Shown: one piece after another, positions 43,706-64,000 of the stretch
Layout: each line of letters begins with the position of its first letter
Numbering within the stretch: the first letter of the stretch is position 1
Origin: Chiloscyllium plagiosum
Taxonomy: Eukaryota
Assembly (NCBI RefSeq): GCF_004010195.1
Contig: NC_057737.1
Span: 16,022,950 to 16,086,949, forward strand
Direction: 5' to 3'
Length of the DNA: 64,000 nucleotides
Position numbers and translations under genes: made by a program
Notes under the pieces: model-generated
Database searches by the model: none
Told to the model about the DNA's origin: nothing
Seen by the model: the letters and a program-made list of their open reading frames with translations, nothing else

Positions 43706-43979
43706 TCTATTATTTAAATTGTCACACATCTAAAGTGTGAATTAAAACAATATGCTACCTGAAAAAAAACCGTCAGCTTGATTGCCTCCTGTTGATTATG
43801 TTGAAAAATGTGTTTCCAAAACTGGTGCCACACAATATATCATACATTTAGTGATGGTGTCATCAATATAGCCACAAAACAAAGGCAAAGCTAATCCTAT
43901 CAATGTTCGTTGTGCTCAAAGCCAAAATTGGAAGTGCCCAATTTGCTATTGAGGTGGGTTCAGCAAAGTCAAGCCTTGT

Positions 43980-44090
43980 GTATCACCTGATGTATACGTC
44001 ATACGTCATACTTCAAATGCAATCTCATATTGTGAGATCGATTGAGAGCGTGGTAGTTGGTGTTTACGTGGCTTCAAAATGGCGGTACCA
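43980..44090 (+). promoter_or_regulatory. CpG-enriched promoter / 5'UTR
   Basis: Tandem CRE half-sites tacgtcatacgtca, tttacgtgg, and YY1-type motif CAAAATGGCGG overlapping the ATG at 44079. Confidence 0.65.
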
Positions 44091-44111
44091 TACTTTGAAG
44101 TTACTACTGAG
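44079..44111 (+). CDS. Unknown gene, coding exon 1 (MAVPYFEVTTE)
   Basis: Strong Kozak aaaATGG; donor GAG|gtttgt; phase 0. Confidence 0.65.
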
Positions 44112-46904
44112 GTTTGTAATTGAAAATATTTTACAACATTTTCGGCGATTGCAACTTGTTAAGTTTGCTCTGTGAATTTTTTGCTGTTTAGTGCATGACG
44201 GGCAGGATTGAGGACTTCAAAATGAAGATAAATGCTTTGCTTTGGTAACATGCAACTGATAATTAAACTTGATAAAAATGAATAATTCTATTTATGACAT
44301 TTTTTATGTAATGACTAAGGTAACAGAGGTGTGTGTCATGTATTAGTAATCATTTGAAAATGTATAGGTCAATTTTTTGTGGTCTCCTGAACAGATTTCC
44401 TTTTGTGTATTTCATTTCATTAGATATCACGAAGTTCTCATGCTATAAAAGTTAATTAGGAGATTTGAATACTTTGTGGTAAAGAGCATTTAAAATTAAG
44501 CTCGTGCATTGATGTTTCATGATCGAGAGAGGATTGCCTTCACAGTTCTTATTTCTTATCAGCCAAAGGATCTACACAAAGCGGCTGTTAGCACACAGTG
44601 GTCATTGTCAGCAGACCAGGTCGTGAAATTAACAAGCTATATAACTCCTTTCACACTTGCTTTATACTTCTCTATCAAAATGTGCACTATGGTTTTTTGA
44701 AAAATCTTTGTTAATTAAATGTTCACTGTTATGGAGGATTCAGTCGAATCTAACTTTTTGTCAATAGTGGGCTATTTGTATTTCAAAGAATGTTGGATGA
44801 TTTGATGTTTTGCTTCAATTTTGAGATTCAGACATAAAGTGAATGTTTTGACTTCAGCTGTCAAACATCTTCGAAATAGAGAGCTTGTCATCTAGTGTTT
44901 TCTGAGACCAATGTTCAGTGGGATCTTAAGAATAGAATGAGTTTTCCAATCTTGTGCATCTGTCAAGAATCTGCAGTTTTAAAAAAGCATCTTTTTTGGA
45001 ATGCTGCAGAATAAAAGTTGTAAGTTGCATTTCGTTCATTTCCAATGGAATCATTTGATCAGTTTTAGTCATGAGATGTGGTTTAATCAGATACAGAAGG
45101 ATTGCGTAAGTAGAGAAACAATTAATTTTCCAGTGTTTGAACAAATTTATCCAGTGAGCAGTTGGCACATAAAAGTTACGAAGGTCTATGTTTTAATCCC
45201 TAGGGTGTGTTGCATGAGTTAATCTCAACTAGAGACAGGAATGTTACAACTAGGATCATAGCTATTAGATTAGAAAGGGAGAAACATGTCCCACTTTCAA
45301 TTACTATTGAGTAATACATGGAAGCAGAAGGGAACCTTTCTCAATAACAGTGTAAGGAAAAGACTTTTAATTGTGTTAACGTCTGTCAAGTGGAAGGCTC
45401 CTTCCTGTGGAACTATATACATGAGTCCTTGCGTTATTGAAATCTATAGGTATATCTGTCCTCCAAGAAAAGTACATGCAGGGTTGTTGAATCTTGATGG
45501 ACAATTTCAGCATTTCTTGCCTAGCGATCTTAAATTTAAAAACCCATCTACTGTCATCCTGTCTGGCTTGCTTGTGACTTCAAATGCCCAGCAGTGTCAC
45601 CACACTCGGACATGACACAGAATGCCAGTCAGTGCATGGGCAATGGAGGATGGGGAGCATTATCAATAATGCCCAGATCCCATGAATTAACTATTTAAAA
45701 AAATAAGCAAACTACTGCAAATGCTGGAAATCTGGAAAAAAAACCCCAGAAAATGTTGGAAATATTTGGCAGGTCAGGTAGCTCATCTGGAGACATAGAT
45801 AGAGTTAATGTTCTAGGTCAATGACCTTTCATTAGAATTCCATAATCTTTTATATAGTATTATTTTGACCTGATAAAATGCAGGATTTTGGTTCAGTCAA
45901 GGGCTTTTTAAAATCAAGTTGATATGATGCAGTAAGAATCAAAATCTATGAAAGGGGAATCTAAAATAAATCAAGGTGTGCCTGCTAGAATGTGTGTGAG
46001 TCAAACTGAAATATGATATTTAGGGGAGAGCACCTACATATTTTCAGTTTAATTAGCACTTTTGGTGTAACTGCTTTACCATGAAATTCAGCATGGTTAT
46101 CATCACAGAGGTAGACAAATTTAAATTTGGCAGGGAACACTATTTTTATTTCAGAGCTGGTTAGATCACGCTTGTGCAATATGCCAGTCGATTGAGCATA
46201 TATTGTTGACTCATGCTTGAACTACTTTTAGCATCAAGGAGAAAGTTTGCAAGTTTGTTTCTTATAAGGAAAGATAAATTGGGGGGAATCCATTATGTTT
46301 AATCTGATTTACTGCGACACTTTAGGCATAACAAACATTCATACCCCACTAAACATATATGCAGCTGCAAATGTGACCTGCAGAAATGATAGTTCTAGTT
46401 AGAAAAAGAGATCTGATTATATGTAGATGCTTAGGTGTGGTATTTTGTTCACATTGCTATCAGAATTAGATCCGTTTATTTAATAATAATTATAATAGAA
46501 TTTGAATTCAGTTGGCAAAGTAGAACTCACTGCTCTCCCATTTCTCATTAAAATTCAGAATTGAATCTTCAGAATTGGTTGTATAAGTATTTAACATAAT
46601 TATATCATGTTTCCCATTTTAATAACAGGCAGAGTGGAAACAGTAAACTGAGGAATCTCAAATTACTGAGTGAAGTATCATTGTGCCAATGTTATTAATT
46701 CCCAGGTTTAGACACTGGGCAACATTGTTGAAGACTGTTGCATAAGTGCAATTAATGTCCTCGGACCGAGGTGATTTTTATTACTTTCATCCATTTATTC
46801 TTTGGGAATGGATCATATTACTGTTGTGAACTATTTTTTATTGAACATTTGTGAGGAAGATGAGCACAGTGACGAATGTTCCTTATAGAATAGTTTTACT
46901 ACAG

Positions 46905-47030
46905 ATTCCCAAAGAGCAAGTTAACTCTGGTAAATTCCATAACTTTAACAGGAATGTTGCCAATCAATGCCGGAAAATGCTGTTGCACATTTTTCCGGAG
47001 CATTACCAAAACCCAACAGTAATCAGGCAA
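46905..47030 (+). CDS. Unknown gene, exon 2 (IPKEQVNSGKFHNFNRNVANQCRKMLLHIFPEHYQNPTVIRQ)
   Basis: Acceptor ttttactacag|, donor CAA|gtgagc; 126 nt, phase 0-0, open frame. Confidence 0.65.
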
Positions 47031-47072
47031 GTGAGCCCAATTTGTCAAGGATCTGTAAGAATAGTGCAAGGT

Positions 47073-48730
47073 ACAGAGGATTACTAAGAAGGAAATATGC
47101 ACAACAGAGGATTACTAAGAAGGAAATATGCAGAGAAAAAATGAGGTACGAAGGTAAACTGGACAAAAATATAAAGGAGGATAGTAAAAGCTTTTTTTGG
47201 TATGTGAAAGGCAAAAAAATGGTTAAGACTAAAATTGGGCCTTGAAGACAGACACAGGGGAATATATTACGGGGAACAAAGAAATGGCAGAAGAATTGAA
47301 TTGGTACTTCAGATCTGTGTTCACTGGGGAAGACACAAGCAATCTCCCTGAGGTAACAGTGGCTGAAGGACCTGAACTGAAGGGAATTTATATTTGCCAG
47401 GAATTGGTGTTGGAGAGACTGTTAGGTCTGAAGGTTGATAAGTCCCCGGGGCCTGATGGTCTACATCCCAGGGTACTGAAGGAGATGGCTCGAGAAATCG
47501 TGGATGCGTTAATGATTATTTTCCAGAGTTCGATAGATTCAGGATCAGTTCCTGCGGATTGGAGGATGGCTAATGTTGTACCACTTTTTAAGAAAGGTGG
47601 GAGAGCGAAAGCAGGAAATTATAGACCAGTTAGTCTGACCTCAGTGGTGGGAAAGATGCTGGAGTCTATTATAAAGGATGAAATTACGACACATCTGAGT
47701 AGTAGTAATAGGATAGATCAGAGTCAGCATGGATTTATGAAGGGAAAATCATGCTTGACTAATCTTCTGCTTTTTACAATCTATCTTCATGATATACAAG
47801 ATGGTATTAGCAATAACATTCGCAAATTTCATCAGCTGGGTGGCAGGGTGAAATGTGATGAGGATGTTAGGAGATTACAGGGTGACCTGGACAGGTTAGA
47901 TGAGTGGTCAGATGCAGTTTAATGTGGATAAATGTATGGTTATCCACTTTGGTGGCCAGAACAGGAAGGCAGATTACTACCTCAATTGAATCAATTTAGG
48001 TAAAGGGGCAGTACAGAGAGATATTGGTGTTCTTGTACACCAGTCAATGAAGGTAAGCATGCATGTACAGCAGGTAGTGAAGAAGGCTAATAGCATGCTG
48101 GCCTTCATAACAAGAGGGATTGAGTATAGAAGCAAAGAGGTTCTTCTGCAGCTGTACAGGGCCCTGGTGAGACCACACCTGGAGTATTGTGTGCAGTTCT
48201 GGTCTCCATATTTGAGGAAAGACATTCTGGCTATGGAGGGAGTGCAGCGTAGGTTCACGAGGTCAATTCCTGGAATGGCGGGACTACCTTACGCTGAAAG
48301 ACTGGAGCGACTGGGCTTGTGTTCCCTTGAGTTTAGAAGACTGAGAGGGGATCTGATTGAGACATATAAGATTATTAAAGGATTGGACACTCTGAAGGCA
48401 GGAAACATGTTTCCGCTGATGGGTGAGTGCCGAACCATAGGACACAACTTAAAAATATGGGGTAGACCATTTAGGACAGAGATGAGGAGAAACTTCTTCA
48501 CTCAGAGAGTGGTGGCTGTGTGGAATGCTCTGCCCCAGAGGGCAGTGGAGGCCCAGTCTCTGGATTCATTTAAGAAAGTGTTGGATAGAGCTCTCAAAGA
48601 AAGTGGAATCAAGGGTTATGGAGATAAGGCAGGAACAGGATACTGATTAAGGATGATCAGCCATGATCATATTGAATGGTGGTGCAGGCTCGAAGGGCAG
48701 AATGGCCTATTGTCTATTTTCCCTGTTTAT
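47073..48730 (+). mobile_element. Relatively young CR1 LINE with an internal RT deletion
   Basis: KSPGPDGLHPRVLKE, GNYRPVSLTSVVGKMLE, QHGFMKGKSCLTNLL fused directly to LFTIY, RPHLEYCVQFWSPY. Confidence 0.95.
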
Positions 48731-49039
48731 GTACAATTACATGATTAATCCCTTTATCGTGGATGTGGTTAGAATCTTGTTGCACAAAGTACAGTGCCAT
48801 ATGCCAATTAGTGTTCTCTCTAATTTTTATCCTTTCTGTGCGCACTTCTGTGTTTGTGTGTGGTACATCAAAGCAGAGTGGAAGTCATCATAGCAGAGGG
48901 AACATTGTTGATGATGTTAAGTATGGAGTAATCCAACAAACATAGTTGATCCATCAAATTTATCTCAGTCAATGGCACATAGACTCTCAGACTTTGCCTG
49001 AAAGGTGCTGTGAGTTCCCATTAGACATTGTTTACTTAC

Positions 49040-49472
49040 ACTTTAGTAAAGGCTTTGACAAGGTTCTGCATGGTAAATTAAAAATTGAAGTTTGAGAAAG
49101 TGAGGACTGCAGATGCTGGAGATCAGAGTCAAGAATGTGTGGTGCTGGAAAAGCACAGCAGGTCAGGCAGCATCCGAGGAGCAGGAGAATCGATGTTTCA
49201 GGCAGGAGCCCTTCATCAGAATTATTGAAGTTTGATCGTATGGGATTCGGGATGAGCTTGACAACTGGATACAAAATTGGCTTAACAGCAGGAGACAGAG
49301 GGTGGTAGTGGAGGGTTATTTTTTTGGACAGGAGAAGTTCACAAGTAAGAACTTATTGGGGTGATATGGGCCAAGCAGAGGCAGGTGGGACTCGTTTAGT
49401 TTGGGATTACGGTCAACGTGGACTAGTTGAACCAAAGGGTCTGTTTCCATGCTATATGACTTCATGACTCTA
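49040..49472 (+). mobile_element. CR1 fragments with a Penelope pLTR inserted at 49096-49223
   Basis: FSKGFDKVLHGKL; 12-bp TSD attgaagtttga (49084-49095, 49224-49235). Confidence 0.85.
49192..49219 (-). ncRNA. Minimal hammerhead ribozyme motif
   Basis: Reverse complement CUGAUGA-A-GGGC-UCCU-GCCU-GAAA-C-AUC. Confidence 0.7.
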
Positions 49473-50144
49473 TGGTATTACATCGTGCTCATGTCCAACT
49501 CTCTAATCTGGGCTGTCAGAGACCAGCTTTAAAAATTGTACAAATTGTGTTATGGATCTTATCTTGATCAGTATTAGCAAGTCAGCACATTTTCAATATT
49601 GTTCCGCACTGTATTCTCCAGCCGATACATTAATATGTGATGTAACTGATAGTCATGGTGTCACTTAAACATTTGAATGTTTCAGTGGTCTTAAGAAAAG
49701 GAAGTTATTTTATTGAACCTGCTTTGGGGATTCCCACTATGAAGGACCAAACATCTGAAAAGATCTGAAAGCCATTTCATGTGTGTGTAAATGTGTTAAA
49801 TTGCCTGGCTTCCTTGTACCCACACCAAATAAAATCAGGTCAATAATCCTTTTAATGACAAATAAAGAACATAAAATGACAAACGTAGATCAGACCATCA
49901 GTACTTTTTCTTGAAAATCAGTTTTATTTTCACTGATATCAAATACCTACAATGCACACAGTCAATTTTATTGTTAATTAGTTTTTAATCATTCTCATTA
50001 AAATTGAGATTTAAAGTGGTTCAACAGCACCATATCATGAACTAACTTTTTTCCCTAAAAACAAAGACAAGTTGCTGAAAAAAATTATTCACTTAAATTT
50101 TGCAAGCTTATGTTTCTGAAGAAATTGAAATGGAGTTGATGGAG

Positions 50145-51225
50145 TCATGGACTCATAGAGATGTACAGCATGGAAACAGACCCTTCGGTCCAACCCGTCC
50201 ATGCCGACCAGACATCCCAACCCAATCTAGTCCCACCTGCCAGCACCTGGCCCATNNNNNNNNNNNNNNNNNNNNNNNNNNNNNNNNNNNNNNNNNNNNN
50301 NNNNNNNNNNNNNNNNNNNNNNNNNNNNNNNNNNNNNNNNNNNNNNNNNNNNNNNNNNNNNNNNNNNNNNNNNNNNNNNNNNNNNNNNNNNNNNNNNNNN
50401 NNNNNNNNNNNNNNNNNNNNNNNNNNNNNNNNNNNNNNNNNNNNNNNNNNNNNNNNNNNNNNNTAGGAAGGAGACCAGAATTGCACGCAATAATCCAAAA
50501 GTGGCCTAACCAATGTCCTGTACAGCAGCAACATGACCTCCCAGCTCCTGTACTCAATACTCTGACCAATAAAGGAAAGCATTCCAAACGCCTTCTTCAC
50601 TATCTTATCTACCTGTGACTCCACTTTCAAGGAGCTATGGACCTGCACTCTAAGGTCTCTTTGTTCAGCAACACTCCCCAGGACCTTACCATTAGGTGTA
50701 TAAGTCCTGCTAAGATTTGCTTTCCCAAAATGCAGCACTTCGCATTTATCTAAATTAAACTCCATCTACCACATCTCAGCCCATTGGCTCATCTAATCAA
50801 GATCCCATTGTAATCTGAGGTAACCTTCTTTGCTTTCCCCTGCACCTCCAATTTTGGTGTCATCTGCAAATGTACTAACTAAACCTCTTATGCCCACATC
50901 CAAATCATTTATATAAATGACAAAAAGTAGTGGACCCAGCACTGATCCTTGTGGCACTCCACTGGTCACAGACCTCCAGTCTGAAAAACAACCCTCCACC
51001 ACCACCCTCTGTCTTCTACCTTTGAGCCGGTTCTGTATCCAAATGGCTATTTCACCCTGTATTCCATGAAATCCAACCTTGCTAACCAGTCTCCCATGGG
51101 GAACCTTGTCGAGTGCCTTACTGAAGTCCATATAGATCACAGCTGCCACTCTGTCCTCGTCAATCCTCTTTATTACTTCTTCAAAAAACTCAATCAAGCG
51201 TGTGAGACATGATTTCCCACGCACA
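50145..51225 (-). mobile_element. CR1 LINE spanning N gap 50256-50463
   Basis: GKSCLTRLIEFFE, YMDFSKALDKVPHGRL, GVPQGSVLGPLLFVIYINDL, FADDTKIGG. Confidence 0.95.
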
Positions 51226-52842
51226 AATAAATAATTGAAACTTCAGGAAGTTCCAGCTCTTAGATTAAATAAAACCCCAAGAACACTTAATTGAGATTGG
51301 ATGATTAATGTCTTACCACAGTTGACTGTGCCCTTTCTGAGCACTTTTATTGTTATGAAGTTCTAAATTATAAAAGTAATCTGTTTGTCTTCTCCTCCAT
51401 CTTGATCCCCTGATGACCCATTCCTCCACCCTGGCTTGATCAGAAAAGTTCATAATTTTGACTTCTTTCACCAATTTGCACAGAGTCAAATCTCTCTCTT
51501 ATCACTGTGGTACAGTGCATAACATCAGTGATTCATTATGTCTTACTGTGGGTCATTTAGAGGAATCTGGCTTGTTGCAATGATACCAGAGCAGATGAGA
51601 TCTGACCAAACAATTAAGATAATGATTAAAGATATCAGTGTACATGTTTTATTACATTCGCAACTAATGTGAATAAAGAATGGTTTCCTATAATTTTATT
51701 GCTCGCTAACTGGTAGTTGTCAGATTCAGAACAATGTGTGATTGTTAGTAAAATGTAAGATTTTAATTTATTGGAATGTTGGGATTGAATCAGAGGAATG
51801 TCGCTCCAACCTTCAGTGTAAGTGGCAGTTTTAAATTTACTAAATCAATCCCTCACTTCCTTATATTTAGACATAGGAAAAATATCATAGATGACAATTT
51901 GAATTTATATAATGACTTTAATGTAGCAAAGTGTCACAAGGTATTTAGAATGCTCCCACAGGAGGGTATAAAAAATAAATTATTCAGTGGTTGTAAAACA
52001 GAAGTATATTGTTTGAAAGCTTAGTACCAATGAATGTTGAAAAATATTTTCACACTTTTAAAATTATTGTTAACATTTGGCATTTTTCTCAAAACACACA
52101 AAAAATCCATTGCAAGTCAAGTTTCACATTATATAGCTCTTGAGAGAAAAAGCTACATTTGGTTATATGATCAAGTCAAACATACCATTCTTTTAAGAAT
52201 ACACGCAATCAGAATCAGTTTTGCTTGCACTGAATAGATGAAAATCTCAATTTCTGCATCGTGGTCTCAATTAAAAGATTTCTTGTGATACAACTGGAAT
52301 ATTTCACTGTCATATTATTATCAATGTTTAGTGATAAAATGATGGCAAAGATACATAACCTCATAGGAGTGGTTTGTTTGACCTAACCACATAACTAATG
52401 CAAATTTTGTCAGACGTCTAGGGAGAACATTCATTTTGGCAAAAGAGCCAAAAAGTAACTTTGACTATCCACTTTGGGAGTAACAGGAATAAATCTAATA
52501 TCTGTTTAAGAGTTTAGATGATAAGCTATTAACTTGCTACTCAGGAGTTAAACTGTCATTGGAGATCAGCTGTCCCTTAAGGACACCACCATTGATTACA
52601 AAGAATCTAAACATTGGGTAGTTTCTGTAATGAATGACCAATTCAGCCTTAGTCTTGCACACTAATGGCAAGTTGAAAATCTAACTATCAAACAAAATGG
52701 ATTTAATATTTGAGTTTGGGATTGTATGCAGAAGCACATGGTACTGAATGGAAACATATCAAGGAGATATTTAGCTTGTGCTGTCTTTATTCATAAGTTG
52801 AGATGAGTCTTGCTAAAGTGATACTCTTTCTTTTCTTGGCAG

Positions 52843-52949
52843 AAACCAGTGCAGCCTGTGGATGATCCCTATGGTTTAAATGCTGTCATTGTTTTTGGAA
52901 CTTTCTCTGTCCCATTAGCAGACATGTATCCTGAAATTACACATTTGGA
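52843..52949 (+). CDS. Unknown gene, exon 3 (KPVQPVDDPYGLNAVIVFGTFSVPLADMYPEITHL-E)
   Basis: Acceptor ctctttcttttcttggcag|, donor GA|gtaagt; only the phase-0 frame is open; ends in phase 2. Confidence 0.72.
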
Positions 52950-53679
52950 GTAAGTGGAGCTGCTTTATATTTTACCGTGGTGTCTTCAAACTGGCCATAT
53001 AGTTTTTTAAGTGCATAGAAACAAGTTCTTTACACTTAGAACTCCACTCCCTATTCCTTGGAGCGGCTTCTATTTCTCCTGATGTTTACAGTGATCTTCA
53101 GAGCAACATTCCATTATTCACGAAAATTATCATTTTTTATGGAGGTCTTTGTGAATTTTTCTGTGTTGTTTACAGATATTTGAGCAGACCATATAATAAT
53201 CATCAAAAGCAGTTTGATTTCTCCCTTCTCTTTCCTCTTTGTCAAGTAACATTTACTGTCCCAACTCAACACAACCTGAAGATTAGATAACTTCCTGGTT
53301 TGAGATTTAAAGCCAATGTCCTATTCTGTATTAAGTTTTATTGTTTGCTTTTCATTTCAGTAACAGTGATCATTTTTGCCCTTAATTCATTCCCATTGCT
53401 GAGACCCACACTGTATTTAATATTCAACCCCTCAATCTTCCATTCTCCACCCTACCTAACATCTCCAAAACAGCACCACGTGTCAGCGACCTCATCAGCA
53501 CCTACCACCTAGAACCTCCGTTCTCAGATAGACACACTGACTCCATGTCTTATAATTCATTTGATTCAATATCATGGTTTTCTTTTATTGTTACCTACTC
53601 AGTATTATGCTAGTTTAATTCCACATTCATCTCTATCCTTATGTCCCACCTGGACTCTCACATCTCCTCACTCTTCTGG

Positions 53680-54205
53680 ATTACTGTGTCCAGTTCTGGT
53701 TGCCCTGTTATAGGAAGGAAATTATTAGACTGGAGAGAGTTCCGAAAAGATTTACCAAGATGTTGATGGGACTGGGGACTTTGAAGTACAAAAATAGACT
53801 GGGTAATTTTTCACTGGACCGTAGGAGGTTGAGGAATGACCTTATTGAGTCTTATAATATCATGAGGGACAGAGATAAGATGAATAACAAGGTAGGGTGG
53901 GGGAGTACAAAAATAAGGGGCATACTTTTAAGGTGAGAGGAGCAAGATTTTAAAAACATATGGGGGCAACTTCTTTTACACAGAAAGTGGTTCATTTGTG
54001 GAATGAGCTGCCAGAGAAAGTGATGGATGCAGATACAGTTCCAATGTTTAAGACATTTGCATAAGTTCATATGCAGGAAAGGTTTGAAGGGATATGGGCC
54101 AGAAGCAGGCAGGCGGGGCTTGTTTAGTTTGGGAACATGGCTGGCAATGATGTGTTGGACCGAAGGATCTGTTTCATGCCATATGACGTTATGACTCTGT
54201 GACTC
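53680..54205 (+). mobile_element. CR1 LINE 3' fragment
   Basis: YRKEIIRLERVPKRFTKML, LRNDLIESYNIMR; tgactctgtgactct tail. Confidence 0.88.
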
Positions 54206-54827
54206 TGGATCTATAGCACAGGCTTCCTATTTCTCACCATTTTCCAGCTTTCCAATGTTGGAATAGAGTCTTCAACCATCTCAGCTCTAATTTCAGGAAT
54301 TCATCTTAATTTCTCATCTACCAGCTCTGAAGATTATATTTTCAGCTACACCTTTTTTTACCTTACTATAATACACTTCCTTCCATTACTGATATCGGCT
54401 TTAGTTGTTCACTAGAATAAAGTTGTCATAGTTCCAGATGATCTACATAAATGCAAATAAAACCAATACATTAAAACTTGATCCACCGATAACTTCCCCA
54501 ACCAGAAATCACGTTTGTCATTAAATGGCAGCATATCTTAAAGTGACATCCCAATCACTTCCATATCTTTAATAGAAAACAAAAATACCTTACTTTAAAT
54601 ACCAAATGCTATTGTCTTCATTGCCACATGTATCCTAATGAGATTAGAACATAGAACAGTACAGCACAGTACAGGCCCTTCGGCCCTTGATGTTGTCCCA
54701 ACCTTTTATCCTACTCTAAGATCAAACTAACCCACATACCCTTCATTTTACTACCATCCATGTGCCGAGTTGCTTAAATGTCTCTAATGTATCTGGCTCT
54801 ACTACCACTTCTGGCAGTGCATTCCAC

Positions 54828-55220
54828 CAGATGGTGGCATCATTAGTTTCATGAGACCATGAATCTGCACCAGGGAGGTCTTGCTTCAATCTTTGTTGGC
54901 AGAGCAGCGTCTGTTGTGGCTGTAGAGGCCCACATGGGAGTGGCAGTCTCGGCTGCAGCGACTGCACTTGATGGCGCTGTCCTCCAGTGTTGTCTTGGCG
55001 CTGTTTTCTTGGTGGGTGCGCTTTTCTTCAGCAGCAACCTCAGCTTCTCTTCTCCTCTTTTTAGACCATCGCGTAATTCCAACTTCCAACAAGAGCAATC
55101 GCCTGCAATGTTCACCCACATCTCAAAATCCATGTTCAGTGACTTCATGTCTCTCTTGCAGACAACTTTGAAATGAAGATGGGGCCGCCTCTGTGCTCTC
55201 TTGCCAGAGGCTAGTTCTCC
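54828..55220 (-). mobile_element. RTE (BovB-like) LINE 3' fragment inside CR1
   Basis: GELASGKRAQRRPHLHFKVVCKRDMK and C-terminal CSRCSRDCHSHVGLYSHNRRC. Confidence 0.85.
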
Positions 55221-57034
55221 ACTCTCTGTCTAAAGAACTGACCTCTGACATCTCCCCTAAACCTTCCTCCAATCACCTTAAAATTATGCCCCTTTGTGAT
55301 AGCCATTTCTGCCCTGGGAAAAAGTCTCTGAGTATTCACTCTATCTATACCTCTCATCATCTTGTACACCTCTATCAAGTCGCCTCTCATCCTTCTTCAC
55401 TCCAATGAGAAAAGCCTTAGCTTCCTCAACCTTTCTTCATAAGACATGATCCCCAGCCCAGGCAGCAGCTCCTCTGCAACCTCTCTAAAGCTTCCACATC
55501 CTTCCTGTAATGAGGTGAACAGAACTGAACACAATATTCCAAGTGTGGTCTAACCAGGACTTTATAGAGCTGCAGCATAACCTCACAGCTCTTAAACTCA
55601 ATCCCCATGCTAATGAAAGCCAACACACTATACACCTTCTTAACAACCCTATCAACTTGGGTGGCAACTTTGAGGAATCTATGGACATGAACCCGAAGAT
55701 CCTTCTGTTCCTCCACATCGCCAAGAAATGAGTTACTCCACACTTTTCCAGGTTGAACTCCATCTGCCACTTATCAGCCCAGCTCTGCATCCTGCCAATA
55801 TCCTGTTACAATCTGCAACAGCCCTCCACACTATGCACAACTCCACCAGCCTTCATGTCATCAGCAAACTTACAAATCCACCCTTCCACCTCCTCATCCA
55901 AGTTATTGATAAAAATTACAAAGAGCAGAGGTCCCAGAACAGATCCCTGCGGAGCACCATTGGTTACAGAGCTCCAGGCTATATACTTTCCATCTGCAAT
56001 CACCTTCTGTATTCTATGGGCCAGTGAATTCAGTATCCAGACAGCCAAATTCCCTTGTATCCCATGCCTCCTTATTTTCTGAATGAGCCTACCACAGGGA
56101 ACCTTATCAAACGCCTTGCTAAAATCCATATACACCACATCCATTGCTCTCCATCATCAACATGTTTTGTCACATTTTTAAAGAATTCAATAAGGCTTGT
56201 GAGGCATGACCTGCCCTTCACAAAGCCATGCTGACTATCTCTCATCAAATATGATTTTTCAAGTAATCATAAGTCCTATCTCTTAGAGACCCCTCCAATA
56301 ATTTGCCCACCACAAACGTAATACTGACTGGTCTGTAATTCCCAGGATTATCCCTACTCCCTTTCTTGAACAAAGAAATAACATTTGCCACCCTCCAATC
56401 ATCTGACACTACTCCAGTGCACAGTAAGGATGCAAAGATCATCACTAAAGGCACAGCAGTCACTTCCCTCACTTCCTAAAGTAACCTTGGGTATATCCCA
56501 TTTGGCCCAGGGGACTTATCTATCCTCACATTTTTCAAAATTTTCAACACATCCTCCCTCTTAACATCAACCTGTCCAGCATATCAGCCTGGTCATTGCG
56601 TCCTCACAAATGATAAGGTCCCTGTCACTAGTGAATACTGAAGCAAAGTATTCATTAAAGATCTCCCCTAACTCCTCCAACTCTAGCCACATGTTCCCTC
56701 TACTATCCCTGATCAGCCCTGCCCTCACTCTGGCCATTCTCTTGTTCCTCATGTAAGTGTAGAATGCCTTAGCGTTTTCCTTAATCTTACCGCTAAAGCT
56801 TTTCCATGCCCCCTTCTAGCTCTCCTAAGTCCATTCTTCAGTTCTTTCCTGGCTACCTTGTAACCCACTAGAGCCCTGTCTGATCCTTGCCTCCTCAACC
56901 TTAAGTAAGCTTCCTTCTTCCTTTTGACAAGCTGTTCCACATCCCTTGTCATCCAAGGTTCCTTCACCCTACCATCCCTTCCTTGCCTCAGTGGGACAAA
57001 CCTCTCCAGCATTATCAACAAATGCTCCCTAAAC

Positions 57035-57382
57035 AAACCATTCTCAAGGGGGGCCATATGGCCCTCTTAGGGGCCCTGGCATATTTGAAGGGGGTGGGGT
57101 GCACTATGACAAAGGGAGCCCCAAGGGTTGTCTAATTTGGAGCCTGATATCATGACATTTGCAGAAAAGTACCAAGTTCAACGATCACATTAGGCCTAAT
57201 ATTTGTTTAATTTCATACAGTCGTTTTTTTTTAAGTTTTGTCCAGTACGTCAGAATGTTTTCTTTGTGTTCAGTAATAAATGATTTCTTGTCTATCTGTT
57301 CATGTTGTACCCCTGTCTGAAATGGAGAACCTCTGAAGAGCTCCTAGGGGGACCGTGGCTAAAAAACGGTTGAGAATCACTG
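57035..57382. mobile_element. hAT MITE, same family as 38176
   Basis: 8-bp TSD ccctaaac (57027-57034, 57383-57390); TIR gttgagaatcactg; body homologous to 38176-38559. Confidence 0.9.
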
Positions 57383-59530
57383 CCCTAAACAACAACCACT
57401 TTTCTGTCATGCATTTTCTTGAGAACATTTGTTCCCAATTTCGATGCCCCAATTCCTGCCTAATAGCACTGTAATTTCCCCTCCTCCAACTAAATACTTT
57501 CCCATACTGTTTGCTCCTATCCCTCTTCATGACTATAGTAAATGTCAAGGAGTTGTGATCACTATGACCAAAATGCTCTCCCACCAGAAGATCTAATACC
57601 TGGCCTGGTTTGTTGCCAAGCACCAAATCCAATATGGCCTCCCCTCTAGTCAGCCAAACGACATATTGAGTCAGGAATCCTTCCTGGACAAACCTGACAA
57701 AAACTGCCCCGATCCAAACTATTTGAACTAAGGAGGTTCCAATCAATATTGGGAAGTTAAAGTCATCCATAACGACAACTCTGTTACTTCTGCACCTTTC
57801 CAAAATCTGCCTCCCAATCTGCTTCTCAGTGTCTCTTTTGCTATTGGAGGGTCTTTAGGAAACTCCCAATAAAGTGACTGCTCCTTTCCTGTTTCTGACT
57901 TCCACCCATACTGACTCAGTAGACAAACAATATTGTAAAGCTCAATTGCCCAAAGTAGCTTCAATAACTCAGGGTAATGTTGAGTTAATACTTTTCTTCC
58001 ATTATTAGTTTCCTTCGTACAATCTGGCTGAGTGACACCCCCAATTCCAATATTTTTCGTTTATTATTGGATTAGCAATAATAGGACCTGTTGAAAAGCT
58101 ATCATGCCTGGGCAGGTTGTTTCTGTTAACAAAGAACAGAGTCCAGTGTGTGAATGTATATAATTTCCAGCATACTCTGATATTACCCTGAATGATAATT
58201 TTAAACTGGTCATTGGTATAATTCTTAGCACAATTAGGATTATTTAACAAGATGTCTCCAATAATGACCAACATACAGTAATGTTCATCCAAATTCTCAG
58301 TAATTGGTGTTTGAAAAGGGAAATAGGTAGTAAAACACAGTTGATATGAAACTGTTAAATGATAGATTCACTATTTGTTAGCTGTAGTCAAGAAGCATTA
58401 ATGCCAGGACATATTATGTACTTTCACAGGTGAATGAAGAATTAAGTTAAGAAATATTGTGGGACCATTTTAATTTTGGGGGATTGTGTAAAACAGAGGA
58501 GATCAGGGGTAGTTATGTTAGCTCTTATAACATGAATACTGAGATGGGGTTCTGACAAAGAACAATCACCTGAAGATTTATTCCTAGAACTAAATGGATT
58601 ACAATCTTATCAGAGATATTTATATAGTCTGGACTCTATTGATGAACCTGATGTTCCTGATGGATATTCCTGATGGATTACAAAGCACAAAGGCAAGTAT
58701 TCAAGATGAGACTGATGCCTAGATACACAAATGTCACATGACACTATCTCATGGTTTGATTACACTATTAGCTCTCTTAAAGTCGCACATTTGCTCGATC
58801 ATTGATATATGCAATTTCACAACAATTACATTAGTTGCTTTCAAGTTAGTTCCAACAGAAACAAAAATGAAGGGAGGTCAAAGCAGAATTAATGGTAACT
58901 TTCTAAAGGAAATTGGATTAATACTTGAAGAGGAAAAACATGCCCTCATCCTACAGGAAGAAATTGGGTGGTCGGATTATCTTTCAAAAAGCTGTCGCAA
59001 ACATGATCAGCCAAATAGCCTCCAGGCTTTCTGTATTACTCTTGAATCATAGGGTATTATCTTGAGGTTGCTATTGTGGTAGTATCCCTCCCACTGAGCT
59101 GGGAGGCTTGGGTTCAAGACTTACCTACTCCATAGATGTATAATAAAAATATCAGAATCTTATTTTGAATTTTCTTTCAGGCAGAGGTAATTCTTGAGGC
59201 AGTTTTCAAAGTCTACATCATTTCAATAGTCACTAGATTGATTATCTGGAAAATTCATCCTCACTGTTGTTCATGACTTTCAATGGCTATTCCAACATTT
59301 CCACCTAGACACCTAATGTAGGATTAATACAATGCAATCAGATCAATTACCTCATCATCAATCCTTCATATGAATCACTTTTTCAGCATCCTGATGAGAT
59401 TACAGACTAGAGTTTTCCACTAATTTTCTGAACCTCATACCAGATTGATACCATTCTCTAAGGATTGATACCAGTTGAACAATTCATTTGTAATAATCAA
59501 TACAAGATGACAATTGCATTTAAATTTCAG

Positions 59531-59582
59531 AGAACCAACAGTTGGAATTCCTGAACCTGAGGAAGAGAATTCTGCATCTTAG
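59531..59582 (+). CDS. Unknown gene, exon 4 coding part (E-EPTVGIPEPEEENSAS*); exon extends to 59600
   Basis: Acceptor ttttaaatttcag|, phase 2 matches exon 3; TAG at 59580-59582; donor CAG|gttagt at 59600/59601. Confidence 0.55.
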
Positions 59583-61274
59583 GCAGCACCAGTGTAACAG
59601 GTTAGTCTTCAACCTTTCACACATTTTTTTTAACTTTCCTTAATTTGTAAGTCTTTTCAAGACTGTAAACATCCACCAAATTATTAATGAGGAATCAGAG
59701 AATTATTGAGAAATGAACTCTGGAAAGGAATTTTAATATGAATAAAAACTGAGAATGCTGGAGAAACTCAGCAGGTCTGGCAGTGTCTGAGGAGAGAGAA
59801 ACATAGTTAATATTTTGAGGTTCTTCTTCGGAACTGACTCCACAATTTGTTTGTTTGCGGGTAATGTACTGAATAGATGAATAGCACAATAGAGTGCTTA
59901 CATAATCTCATAATTTTGCCTATGTGAAGACAAAGACTATGTTTAAGGTGGTTGAAAATTGTGTGCTCTAAATATATTATTTTAAGATAGATTTATTGGC
60001 AGACCTTCCTCTACTTGCACCCAATTACTTAGGACACTATCTAGAGAAAAATCAGATGGACTCCCTTTCACAGCTATACAGTCTCTCTGCCAAACCTGTC
60101 CTGAATCAATCTGTGAAGGTGAGCTAATATGCCCTGGGTGGAAGAGCAGGGAGGTTGGTCTAACACTTCAGTGTTCCTTTACAGACAAATGAAAATCAAT
60201 CTGTCCTCTAACTTCCCTCCCAAGTGTCTGAACAATGAACGTAAAATGAGCCCTAATTTTACAACTCGTCAACCAAAGACCCTACGTTTAAAATTACCAC
60301 AACGCTTGGTAAATTCCAAAGACTGTCATCAAAGTATCTTGAAGTCTTAAAGCAGTATATTGCTCCCTGCAAGAGCACCCATGCTACGCATCTGTTACTG
60401 ACTGCTAACCATTGAGAACACCAGAAAAGGCACGCTTCACAAAATGGTTCATAGGCATTGAAACATTACTACAAGAGAAGTGACTTACTTACACACTCTG
60501 GCCCCACAACTGACCTAAAACATCATTCACTTTTGTTTCCATATACTTCTAACAAGCACATTGGGGTTTTGTAATACATTAGAAGGTGCTGCATAGATGT
60601 TGCACACCAAAATGCCTGCTCTTGTGAATGCTATTGTGAACAATAAAAAATTTAGAAATTTAAGAACTTCTTCCATTGCAAGACTAAATATTGCCTACCT
60701 GTTTTCATCTTAATTTGCCAGTTATTAAGTTCTTGTATCCCTCTCATGCTGGTGTTATATCACATTTCCCAAGGTTAATGGGGAGACAGGCAACGTACTG
60801 CTCCTGTTTCATTCACAAATAGGAGGTATGCCAAAAGTTGTGGTTTTTCACCTCCTAATTCCTCCTTCTCACTCAGTGAGGAAGCACACTCTCTGCAGAT
60901 TCTAACAGCTTTCTATTGTTCCTTTGCTAGACAAAAACATGGCAAGTCACTTCACGGGAACATTAAAAATCAAAACTTGACACTAAACCGCAAAAGGAGA
61001 TATTAGAGCCGGTCACGAAACTGGATGGTCATTGAGGTGGAGAGGCTAACATGGACAGCATTTGGTGCCTTTATAATGGTGTATTAATGAGTTTGGGACA
61101 AATAAGATGCTGCTGTTATTCAGCACCATGTCAGATTACAAAACATAGCATCTGCAAATGCAGGCCAGTGTATGTTGAAAATTATTTCCAGACCATTTGT
61201 AATTAAAGCCTGAAGCAGAACAAGAAAAAAAAATTCATTTAAACATGTCTGTGTCAAATATGTATGCCATGAAG

Positions 61275-61560
61275 ACTAAAGGGTGTAGGTTTAGATGAGA
61301 GGGGTCAGATTTAAAAGGAACCAGAGGGGCAACTTTTTCATACAGTGGGTGGTGTGTATATGGAACTAATTGCCAGAGGAATTGGTAGAGGTGGGTACAG
61401 TTACAGCATGTAAAAGACGTTTGGACAGGTACATGTTTAGGAAAGACTTAGAGGAATATGGGCCATACGCAGGCAAAGGGACTAGTTTAGTTTAGGAAAA
61501 ATTGGTCGGCATGGACGAATTGGGCCAAAAGGCCTGTTCCCAAGCTGCATGACTCTACAA
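61275..61560 (+). mobile_element. CR1 LINE 3' end
   Basis: gaggggcaactttttcatacag..tatggaac; gactagtttagttt 3'UTR. Confidence 0.85.
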
Positions 61561-62199
61561 TCTATGGCAGCAAAAAGCCTTCATCCAAATTCCAAAAGGG
61601 AATGAACTATAGCGTGATGAGAAACAGTGCGATTTGAGTTGGACTGAAGGATCTGTTTTCCATGCTGTACATATCTATGACTCTATAACTGTTGACCAAA
61701 ATGTTTACCCTATTTGTTATATGAACCAACTTACTGCCAAGGATGTGCAGTGGCTTTGAGGCACAGAACAATAAGCAACATTCATTAAAATTAAGTAACT
61801 AGTAACAGCATTGCTAGTGCTGAGGTACTATGACGTTAATAATGACGTCAATGTGATGCCAGTGAATCGGGACTTAGAGCGATGCTTATTCAGTAAGGAC
61901 AACCAGTTACAGTTTCATCCAAAGCATTAAAGCAAATTGAACAACATTACATTCAGATCAGGAAAGAATGTCTAGTTATCATCTCTAATTGTGAACATTT
62001 TCACCAATACTTACTGGAACAGATAAAGTGACATTGACTCCAACCACAGTGCACTTCAAAACATTTTTCCTCCAATTGCAACCATCTGCTCTAAAGTATC
62101 TTCAAAGAACGTTACTCTGGTTGGAGACACCATCTGACTGGGACAAATGAGAAAGGGACAAAGAGGCATATTGTTGGCCCACTGCCAAGAGTGGCACTC

Positions 62200-63060
62200 C
62201 TTATGAGAAAAGTCGAGGATGTCAATACAGAATGTGAAATTGTCCAGATTCCATGAGAAGTAACAGCTAGACAGAAAGTTAATAATCCAGCAGAGACATT
62301 GAAGAGAGAGAAGGAGAGATGTTAAAGTGGAGCCATATAAAACACCAAGGAATTAGATCGAGTTGGATTAAAAGAGAAATGTGGTATGACCAAACATAGG
62401 CAATGAGATTAAGTACCACAACAACTAGAGTGGTACATGTAATAAGTTTCAAGCAAACCAATCTACACAGGGGATCTCTTCACTCTAGTATGGACTGGTT
62501 CACCTTGTTACTGTAGACTACTATTCTGACTACTATTCTGACAGATCTCAATAGCTACCTTTGAAACTGCAGAATGCCTCTAAGCACACTTCAGTCAATA
62601 TAGATTTCCAAACAATGAGATGAGTGGCAATGGTCCTCAGCTCAAGTGAAAAATTTAGCCACTTCCTAAATAATTGGGTAATTTAATACTACACACCTCC
62701 ACATTACCCCTAGTCAAATGGTAAGGCTGATGTGGCAAAGAAAAATGTTAGTAGAATCATAAAGAATCTGAGCAGAGCCAACACAGCTCAGTTCAGGGCA
62801 TTCTGAAGGCACGAAACTAAATTGTAAACTGTTACCAAATTACTCTCCAAACAATGACTAAACTGCTGAAGGCAGAAATAAAAATATACCTGAGTTTCAA
62901 ATCATGGTGAAACAACAAAAGAGCCCCAAATTTAATTTTGACAAAACTGCCAAACCATTTCAGATTTAAGCACTAGATAGCCAGTCAGGGTACAAACCTT
63001 CATTGCTCTCAACAAGAGTCAGCCCGGGTAGCAACACGGAACCAATGTACAGTGGTTGTC
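62200..63060 (+). pseudogene. Highly decayed Ty3/Gypsy integrase
   Basis: DLFTL, LVTVDYYSDY, SGNGPQ (DNGPQF), PHYP*SNGKADVA motifs with stops and frameshifts. Confidence 0.75.
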
Positions 63061-63859
63061 ACCTCAAGCTTACACTGTGACATGAATGAAAAGATCAAAC
63101 ATCTCAACCACAGGAACATGAGCACAACTAAGAAAATTGCTCCTTTGCTGCAGGCAGCCAGTCGAGAAACTGTGAACTCATTTTATGCACAGACCATTGA
63201 TCAAACATTAATCTCGGAGGTCCACAGCTCCCTAACAAATGAAATGGAACAATTGTTAATATGACAACTACAAGTAACACAGTGATACTCCCCTGAGAGG
63301 TAACATAACGCAGACAAAAAGCCAAAAACATTGCTTTTGTGTGCCAATAAGGAATTAGCACAATTTAAAGATTATGACCTGATTTTTGGAATAAGGCCAT
63401 TCAGCCCATTGAATCTACTCTGTTCTCTACAAATTGTTCTCTCTTAATACTGATAATCGTCAAGTCTGGATTTTTGAAAAGATTGAGATTGCAGTCAATA
63501 ACAAACTAATCCTTCGGCAAGTGTGCAACAAAAACAAATCTGTTTTCTGTAAATCCTGCTTTGAACTGACTGTCATGAATACTGAGAAGCAGTCCCCTCT
63601 AAAATGTGGTATTGTAGTGGTTAGATATTGGCACGAAAGAAACATGAGCAGCAGAAAAGCCACAGCAATAAAATTCATTTGAAATGTAAGAGTTTAAAGT
63701 TGTAGGTTACCTGGACTGGGGATACCAAAGCTATGTTATACTGTGATACATACACAGTCATAAATTAGTCACAAATTAAAGTAATAGGACTGATCCTGTA
63801 GTATACAGACCATTACCAATTATAAGACAAGGATAATGTTACTATTGGTAGAAGGAAGC

Positions 63860-64000
63860 ATATGTAAGGTATCGACAGGATAGATCGAGTGAATCCTTAG
63901 AAGAGAGAATAAAGGCAGTAGGAGGATACTTAAGGGAGAAATCAGGAAGGCAAAAAGGGGACATGAGATAGCTTTGGCAAATAGAGTTAAGGAGAATCCA
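63860..64000 (+). mobile_element. CR1 ORF2 fragment continuing beyond the window
   Basis: LKGEIRKAKRGHEIALANRVKENP. Confidence 0.85.

What the first reader, a model, noticed from the sequence alone, without database searches (positions are those of the whole stretch)
44079..59600. Hidden four-exon gene for an unrecognised ~105-aa protein
Four exons with canonical GT-AG sites join in frame (phases 0, 0, 2): 44079-44111, 46905-47030, 52843-52949 and 59531-59582. They give MAVPYFEVTTEIPKEQVNSGKFHNFNRNVANQCRKMLLHIFPEHYQNPTVIRQKPVQPVDDPYGLNAVIVFGTFSVPLADMYPEITHLEEPTVGIPEPEEENSAS*. Exon 1 lies in a CpG-enriched stretch with CRE half-sites and a YY1-type AAAATGGCGG over the ATG, typical of housekeeping promoters. 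Exon 3 has only one open frame, the required one. The ORF track misses this gene and I cannot assign it to a family, so it may be a poorly annotated or lineage-restricted small protein (inference).
Basis: partly seen in the sequence, partly recalled or inferred. Interest (0 to 1): 0.72.

Follow-up and report, generated by a model that had tools for sequence, protein, structure and literature searches.

The report
Unannotated small-protein gene in a shark
A single-copy, spliced shark gene likely encodes a small acidic protein (105 amino acids, or 63 if its second exon is skipped) with no database match in our exon-by-exon searches, so it is likely an overlooked or fast-evolving gene, predicted to act as a non-enzymatic binding partner inside the cell.

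Summary
The four exons, GT-AG sites, phases and 105-codon frame are as described. An RNA-like contig from a close relative covers exon 3 exactly and continues into exon 4 (1 of 4 runs, depth 47). The frame has a coding signature (2 of 3000 nulls), and all four exons are single copy.

Corrections: exon 4 is probably not the last exon. A donor lies 18 nt after the stop, and the contig runs 1372 nt past exon 3 without following the adjacent DNA. Exon 2 is unconfirmed: its codon signal is weak and the contig's 5' end fits exon 1 better, so a 63-aa form is possible. The promoter is not a CpG island, and 'housekeeping' is unsupported.

No homologue was found exon by exon in Pfam, PDB or two protein collections, although a control shows this genome's and 16 other chondrichthyans' proteins are held. 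The joined protein, and short entries for exon 3, were not searched.

Verdict: a real, apparently unannotated small gene. It is an orphan candidate whose adaptor role is only inferred.

The parts
43996..44008 (.). Two tandem TGACGT (CRE/ATF-type) half-sites in the likely proximal promoter; no TATA box visible in 43940-44078
   Evidence: function not tested; the CRE label is recalled
44076..44085 (+). AAAATGGCGG over the start codon (A at -3, G at +4; YY1-type motif, label recalled)
44079..44111 (+). Exon 1 coding part, 11 codons, phase-0 donor (weak, score 0.8); transcription start unknown
   Evidence: G1-G2 asymmetry 4 of 600 nulls; single copy; splicing not seen
43903..43953 (+). Possible alternative first exon: ATG plus 17 codons ending at a stronger phase-0 donor (5.5)
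   Evidence: 26 of 1000 nulls; no RNA evidence
46905..47030 (+). Exon 2, 42 codons, phase 0-0, possibly a cassette exon; predicted 20-residue helix
   Evidence: single copy; helix in a single-sequence model; weak codon signal; not confirmed by RNA
52843..52949 (+). Exon 3, one open frame; predicted beta-hairpin plus short helices
   Evidence: covered exactly by the X2 contig; 6 of 600 nulls; single copy; model
59531..59600 (+). Exon 4: 16 codons after the split codon (acidic, Pro-rich tail), stop at 59580-59582, then 18 nt to a likely donor at 59600
   Evidence: start joined to exon 3 in the X2 contig; 5 of 600 nulls; single copy; use of the donor is inferred
60003..60308 (+). Two exon-like pieces (60003-60118, strong donor; 60185-60308), unique DNA, no coding signal, not in the main X2 contig; possible minor 3' UTR exons
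   Evidence: X2 depth 0.19 in 59909-60575

Best explanation
This single-copy gene is spliced from exon 3 to exon 4 and is likely translated from the ATG at 44079 into a small acidic protein of about 12 kDa (105 aa with exon 2), predicted to be soluble and intracellular and to work as a non-enzymatic binding subunit or adaptor. Shown: exon 3 is spliced to exon 4, and the frame is open with a coding-type codon pattern. Inferred: Pol II transcription from a TATA-less promoter with CRE-type sites; exons 1 and 2 join upstream; exon 4 splices at 59600 to about 1.3 kb of 3' UTR further downstream. The stop lies only 18 nt before that junction, so the message would escape nonsense-mediated decay if only one junction follows (50-55 nt rule, recalled). 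The protein has no hydrophobic stretch of membrane or signal type and no recognisable catalytic motif. Single-exon models give a long helix, a beta-hairpin and short helices, followed by an acidic Pro/Glu tail, which fits a small folded core with a flexible binding tail. It most likely went unannotated because it is short, has no detectable homologue, and has its stop before the last junction.
For: Junction 52949/59531 in a 1482-nt contig at depth 47. Two of two visible substitutions are silent in this frame; one would be Leu to Pro in the other open frame of exon 4. G1-G2 asymmetry is 0.25: 2 of 3000 nulls for the whole frame and 4 of 3000 for the RNA-confirmed exons 3-4. Codon model: 0 of 1000 nulls with BLMH+CPD training, 15 of 1000 with the myosin-heavy set. 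Single copy, not a repeat. pI 4.9, highest 19-residue hydropathy 1.24. Predicted structure: helix pLDDT about 89, hairpin about 80. No Pfam hit among 107 candidate exons in the window and up to CPD, and no coding signal in the open frames of four downstream exon-like pieces, so no second main ORF was seen.
Against: No direct evidence of translation. Junctions 1/2 and 2/3 were not seen. The X2 contig starts 3 letters before exon 3, aligned from 52841 with 1 letter left over; this fits an upstream exon ending in non-C,A,G (exon 1) better than exon 2 (my reading of how contigs break). Exon 2 has a weak codon signal (304 of 600; 60 and 107 of 1000), and only 1 of 37 real exons has G1-G2 that low. 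Exonic divergence from organism B (4 of 139 letters, 2 not listed) equals that of three intronic pieces (17 of 593), so constraint is not shown. The myosin-heavy codon model favours the other frame of exon 4 (19 against 184 of 1000); the BLMH+CPD model does the reverse (649 against 0). The adaptor role rests on composition and fragment models only.
Confidence: 0.55

Rival explanations
1. Same gene, but the main product is a 63-aa microprotein from exons 1, 3 and 4; exon 2 is a minor cassette or a chance open stretch.
For: The X2 contig's 5' end fits exon 1's last letters. Exons 1, 3 and 4 each show codon asymmetry and exon 2 does not. The three together score 0 of 1000 nulls with the BLMH+CPD model. 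Exon 2 is phase 0-0 with a weak acceptor (-0.1), and a chance rival with similar splice scores exists at 45010-45204. A 63-aa length would explain the lack of annotation.
Against: Exon 2 lies in a 62-codon open frame ending at a good donor, scores better than the rival (50 against 594 of 1000) and gives a confident helix. X2 depth over exon 1 is low (0.8 in its bin). With the myosin-heavy model the three exons score only 73 of 1000.
Confidence: 0.22
2. A fast-evolving orthologue of a named vertebrate gene, missed because only 35-42 residue pieces could be searched (homology-detection failure). This can hold together with the best explanation or the 63-aa rival.
For: Short queries need roughly 55% identity to reach E 0.001 in 1.84 billion proteins (my estimate). 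Exon divergence looks near neutral. PMC7660931 (abstract) shows that this explains many lineage-specific genes. Entries of 72 aa or less were not searched with exon 3.
Against: Close orthologues from annotated sharks would have been found for exon 2 (23-2000 aa) and exon 3 (73-2000 aa). The control shows 3 of 3 proteins from this genome in the collection, with 17 chondrichthyan species named.
Confidence: 0.3
3. A spliced long non-coding RNA, or an NMD target, whose frame is incidental.
For: No protein entry found. Stop upstream of a donor, with further non-coding exon-like pieces. No fall in exonic divergence. The confirmed exon 3-4 frame alone is not unusual in length (748 of 5000 shuffles).
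Against: Strong codon asymmetry in three separate exons, silent substitutions, strong start context, contig depth 47. No Rfam match, so not a snoRNA or miRNA host.
Confidence: 0.13
4. The frame is the upstream cistron of a bicistronic mRNA (SNURF-SNRPN or ASDURF-ASNSD1 type, recalled), and annotation keeps only a downstream ORF in the unseen 1.3 kb.
For: The stop lies inside an internal exon. The contig has 1372 unbranched nt 3' of exon 3. It would explain absence from all proteomes. Exon 4 has a second open frame running to the donor.
Against: No Pfam hit in 107 candidate exons. No long ORF other than repeats before CPD. Downstream exon-like pieces lack a coding signal and do not chain in frame. 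One good-looking candidate is a repeat. CPD has its own CpG-island promoter.
Confidence: 0.1

Closest known systems
Multi-exon microprotein / small-ORF genes missed by annotation (general class; listing)
   Same: Short spliced ORF, strong start context, absent from protein sets, no family.
   Different: No translation evidence here; no sequence link to any named microprotein.
Lineage-specific (orphan) genes, PMC7660931 (abstract and outline seen)
   Same: No detectable homologue outside a close relative.
   Different: De novo origin versus detection failure was not tested; only single exons were searched.
Bicistronic upstream cistrons such as SNURF, ASDURF, MOCS2A (recalled)
   Same: Small multi-exon ORF whose stop lies in an internal exon of a longer mRNA.
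   Different: No downstream cistron found; no sequence similarity seen.
Small alpha/beta folds: RPB3/RPB11 dimerisation domain, Rdx/SelW family, PCBD (resemblances recalled by eye)
   Same: A helix ending in Phe-Pro followed by strands and a short helix; an Ala-Asn-x-x-Arg pattern in exon 2.
   Different: No Pfam, PDB-sequence or fold hit for either exon; no CxxC/U motif; leads only.

Membership tests
Protein-coding small-ORF gene | Spliced transcript carrying the ORF | tested here: met
   Exon 3-4 junction in the X2 contig; junctions 1/2 and 2/3 not seen; X2 is RNA by the tool's guess
Protein-coding small-ORF gene | Coding-type codon pattern | tested here: met
   exon 2 alone is borderline
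Protein-coding small-ORF gene | Purifying selection on the protein | tested here: inconclusive
   2 of 2 visible changes silent, 2 not listed; exon and intron divergence both about 2.9%
Protein-coding small-ORF gene | Translation (Ribo-seq or peptides) | not testable with these tools
   No such data
Lineage-restricted orphan gene | No homologue outside the lineage | tested here: inconclusive
   Single-exon searches negative; joined protein not searched; entries of 72 aa or less not searched with exon 3
CpG-island housekeeping promoter | GC above 50% with CpG o/e above 0.6 | tested here: not met
   37-38% GC, o/e 0.70-0.77
snoRNA/miRNA host gene | Intronic Rfam RNA | tested here: not met
   0 matches in 134 kb at gathering score
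Transposon-derived ORF | Exons match repeats | tested here: not met
   One genomic match each; unmasked in a 364-kb self-comparison
Bicistronic upstream cistron | Second conserved ORF on the same mRNA | tested here: inconclusive
   None found, but the 3' 1.3 kb of the contig could not be read
Rdx/SelW thioredoxin-like | CxxC or CxxU motif after the first strand | tested here: not met
   One Cys in the whole frame and no in-frame TGA
RPB3/RPB11-like or PCBD | Profile or fold match over the domain | tested here: inconclusive
   No Pfam hit per exon, no fold hit for exon 3; whole domain not searched
Secreted or membrane microprotein | Signal peptide or transmembrane helix | tested here: not met
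   Highest 19-residue hydropathy 1.24, polar N-terminus; hydropathy scan only

The most novel reading that the evidence does not exclude
A shark-restricted, possibly de novo born, multi-exon gene for a small folded protein of a new family, with a cassette exon that adds or removes a whole helix (105 versus 63 aa), overlooked in every annotated cartilaginous-fish proteome.
Probability: 0.25. Interest if true: 0.6.

Novelty: new member of a known kind. Interest (0 to 1): 0.4.

Why it matters
If translated, it adds a real gene that current shark annotations appear to miss, and it gives a tractable case for asking whether a vertebrate orphan is newly born or an old gene diverged past detection. 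If it proves conserved across sharks and rays, or beyond, it would define a new small-protein family and point to a systematic blind spot for short ORFs whose stop precedes the last splice junction. No new mechanism is shown.

Tried and rejected
RNA: no listed holder was on record as RNA. A 20-kb lay was swamped by LINE/SINE reads and showed no exon junctions. Runs X3, X4 and X8 had no contig on exon 3, and X19 and X20 gave no depth in the repeat-free exon 1 and exon 3 bins; the tools say such blanks are no evidence, and I do not use them.

Homologues: the single phmmer hit P0001 is a tandem-repeat artefact. The Atlas gave no answer for either exon. The metagenome scan found nothing. The Foldseek search of the exon-3 model gave nothing at E 0.001 or better (best 5.5).

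A candidate downstream exon at L003:3277-3423 is a repeat. An idea that the 3' UTR is the AT-rich stretch beyond the L1 in L002-L003 could not be tested. The bacterial promoter scan is irrelevant.

Earlier findings: four look-ups returned nothing.

Papers: four searches (listings only) showed no description of this locus. They could not query an unnamed gene, so absence from print is not established, and one search did not verify the YY1 consensus. No supplements were read.

Full report
1. Observation. All four coordinates, the GT-AG ends, phases 0, 0, 2 and the 105-codon frame are in the sequence, and exon 3 has one open frame. An ATG frame this long arose in 11 of 5000 dinucleotide shuffles and 23 of 5000 sets of random unique genomic pieces. 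Each exon matches once in the 3.56-Gb genome. The promoter claim is weaker. The stretch is a local CpG peak (o/e 0.70-0.77) but only 37-38% GC, unlike the CPD island. The YY1-type motif occurs once against 0.19 expected and overlaps the Kozak context and Met-Ala codons. Two TGACGT half-sites lie 70-80 nt upstream of the ATG.

2. RNA. A 20-kb lay was dominated by repeats. A repeat-free lay around exon 3 gave one contig in 1 of 4 runs: X2, organism B, RNA by the tool's guess, 1482 nt, depth 47. It aligns to 52841-52949, and its loose end is the start of exon 4, so junction 52949/59531 is real. Two further differences near the contig end are not listed. Exonic divergence (4 of 139) equals that of three intronic X2 pieces (17 of 593), so constraint is not shown.

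3. The 3' end. The contig has 1372 nt after exon 3, yet X2 depth in 59909-60575 is 0.19, so it leaves the adjacent DNA. The best exit is the donor at 59600 (score 4.5), 18 nt after the stop. The gene therefore likely has at least five exons, with the rest outside 43901-63900 or in repeat-covered bins. Exon-like pieces at 60003-60118, 60185-60308, L002:3530-3614 and L002:6114-6218 are unmasked (three checked genome-wide) but have no coding signal and do not chain in frame. 107 candidate exons from the window and up to CPD gave no Pfam hit (103 of the 145 listed minus overlaps, obvious repeats and exons 2-3). Rfam found nothing in 134 kb.

4. Coding signal. G at codon position 1 minus position 2 is 0.25 (2 of 3000 nulls; 4 of 3000 for exons 3-4). 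Per exon: 4, 304, 6 and 5 of 600 for exons 1-4, and 551 for the other frame of exon 4. A codon model from this genome gives 0 of 1000 for the whole frame when trained on BLMH+CPD (531 codons) and 15 of 1000 with myosin exons added (2499 codons). The myosin-heavy set favours exon 4's other frame and the BLMH+CPD set rejects it. Exon 2 stays borderline (60 and 107 of 1000). The X2 contig also begins three letters before exon 3 in a way that fits exon 1's end, or the donor at 43953, better than exon 2's end; this is my inference from alignment limits. A 63-aa form is therefore a live alternative.

5. Homologues. Exon 2: none at 23-74 or 75-2000 aa; one tandem-repeat artefact among 1.84 billion representatives; none in Pfam, NCBIfam, PDB sequences or metagenomes. 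Exon 3: 0 of 5 candidates scored at 73-2000 aa; none in Pfam, NCBIfam or PDB. Control: 3 of 3 Jun proteins read from this genome are in the collection under shark RefSeq names, with 17 chondrichthyan species named. The 105-aa form thus appears unannotated. Open gaps: the spliced protein was not searched as a whole, and entries of 72 aa or less were not searched with exon 3.

6. Neighbourhood. Carboxypeptidase D starts about 71 kb downstream of exon 4 on the same strand (L008; PF00246, E 3e-44) with its own CpG island. BLMH lies 2.4 Mb away. I recognised no gene by eye among 120 candidates in the 200 kb upstream (not scanned against Pfam). Synteny gave no name.

7. Likely working. The 105-aa product would be 11.9 kDa, pI 4.9, with 12 Pro, 11 Glu and one Cys, and no membrane-type stretch. 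Single-sequence models of the separate exons give a 20-residue helix and a hairpin with short helices; these are fragments and gave no fold match. I commit to a soluble, intracellular, non-enzymatic binding subunit with an acidic tail, on an mRNA that escapes NMD because its stop is close to the next junction. My odds: coding gene about 0.8, the 105-aa form about 0.55, adaptor role about 0.35. CRE half-sites in an AT-rich promoter would also suit a tissue-restricted, for example germ-line, gene (recalled; sample tissue unknown).

8. Comparison and verdict. It looks like other unannotated multi-exon small-ORF genes. It fails tests for CpG-island promoter, snoRNA host, transposon origin, Rdx motif and membrane protein. 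Resemblances to RPB3/RPB11, SelW and PCBD are recalled leads only. Homology-detection failure (PMC7660931, abstract seen) is not excluded. Four paper searches (listings only) showed no description of the locus. It is a new member of a known kind: a credible unannotated gene and orphan candidate, interest 0.4.

Noticed in passing
L008:6241-7200 to L011: Carboxypeptidase D gene with a GC-rich CpG-island first exon, same strand, about 71 kb downstream of exon 4.
   Followed up: partly
G000:C28:18505359-18590195: BLMH lies 2.4 Mb beyond CPD on the minus strand. In human the two are neighbours with TMIGD1 between them (recalled), so the order differs here; no Ig-domain exon was found between the window and CPD.
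   Followed up: partly
window:33791-35407: Tandem array with a roughly 33-nt unit on both sides of an N gap, giving long open frames on both strands.
   Followed up: no
window:61831-61850: Cluster of three TGACGT sites, including a full palindromic TGACGTCA, in unique DNA 2.2 kb after exon 4; possible enhancer.
   Followed up: no
L002:6520-10000 and L003:1-660: CpG-rich L1-type element with ORF1 and part of ORF2, an N gap inside, ending within the RT region, followed by an AT-rich stretch with seven AATAAA.
   Followed up: partly
window:47100-48650, 50100-51240, 53620-57900: CR1-type LINE fragments and SINEs fill much of introns 2 and 3; a 33-nt duplication marks the start of the copy just after exon 2 (family labels recalled).
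   Followed up: no
window:43915-44144: A same-species contig (X1, depth 2.5) spans promoter, exon 1 and intron 1 unspliced with 7 gap letters: possible promoter indel polymorphism, DNA or pre-mRNA.
   Followed up: no
L013-L032 (200 kb upstream): Repeat-rich stretch with no coding exon that I recognised by eye; not scanned against Pfam.
   Followed up: partly
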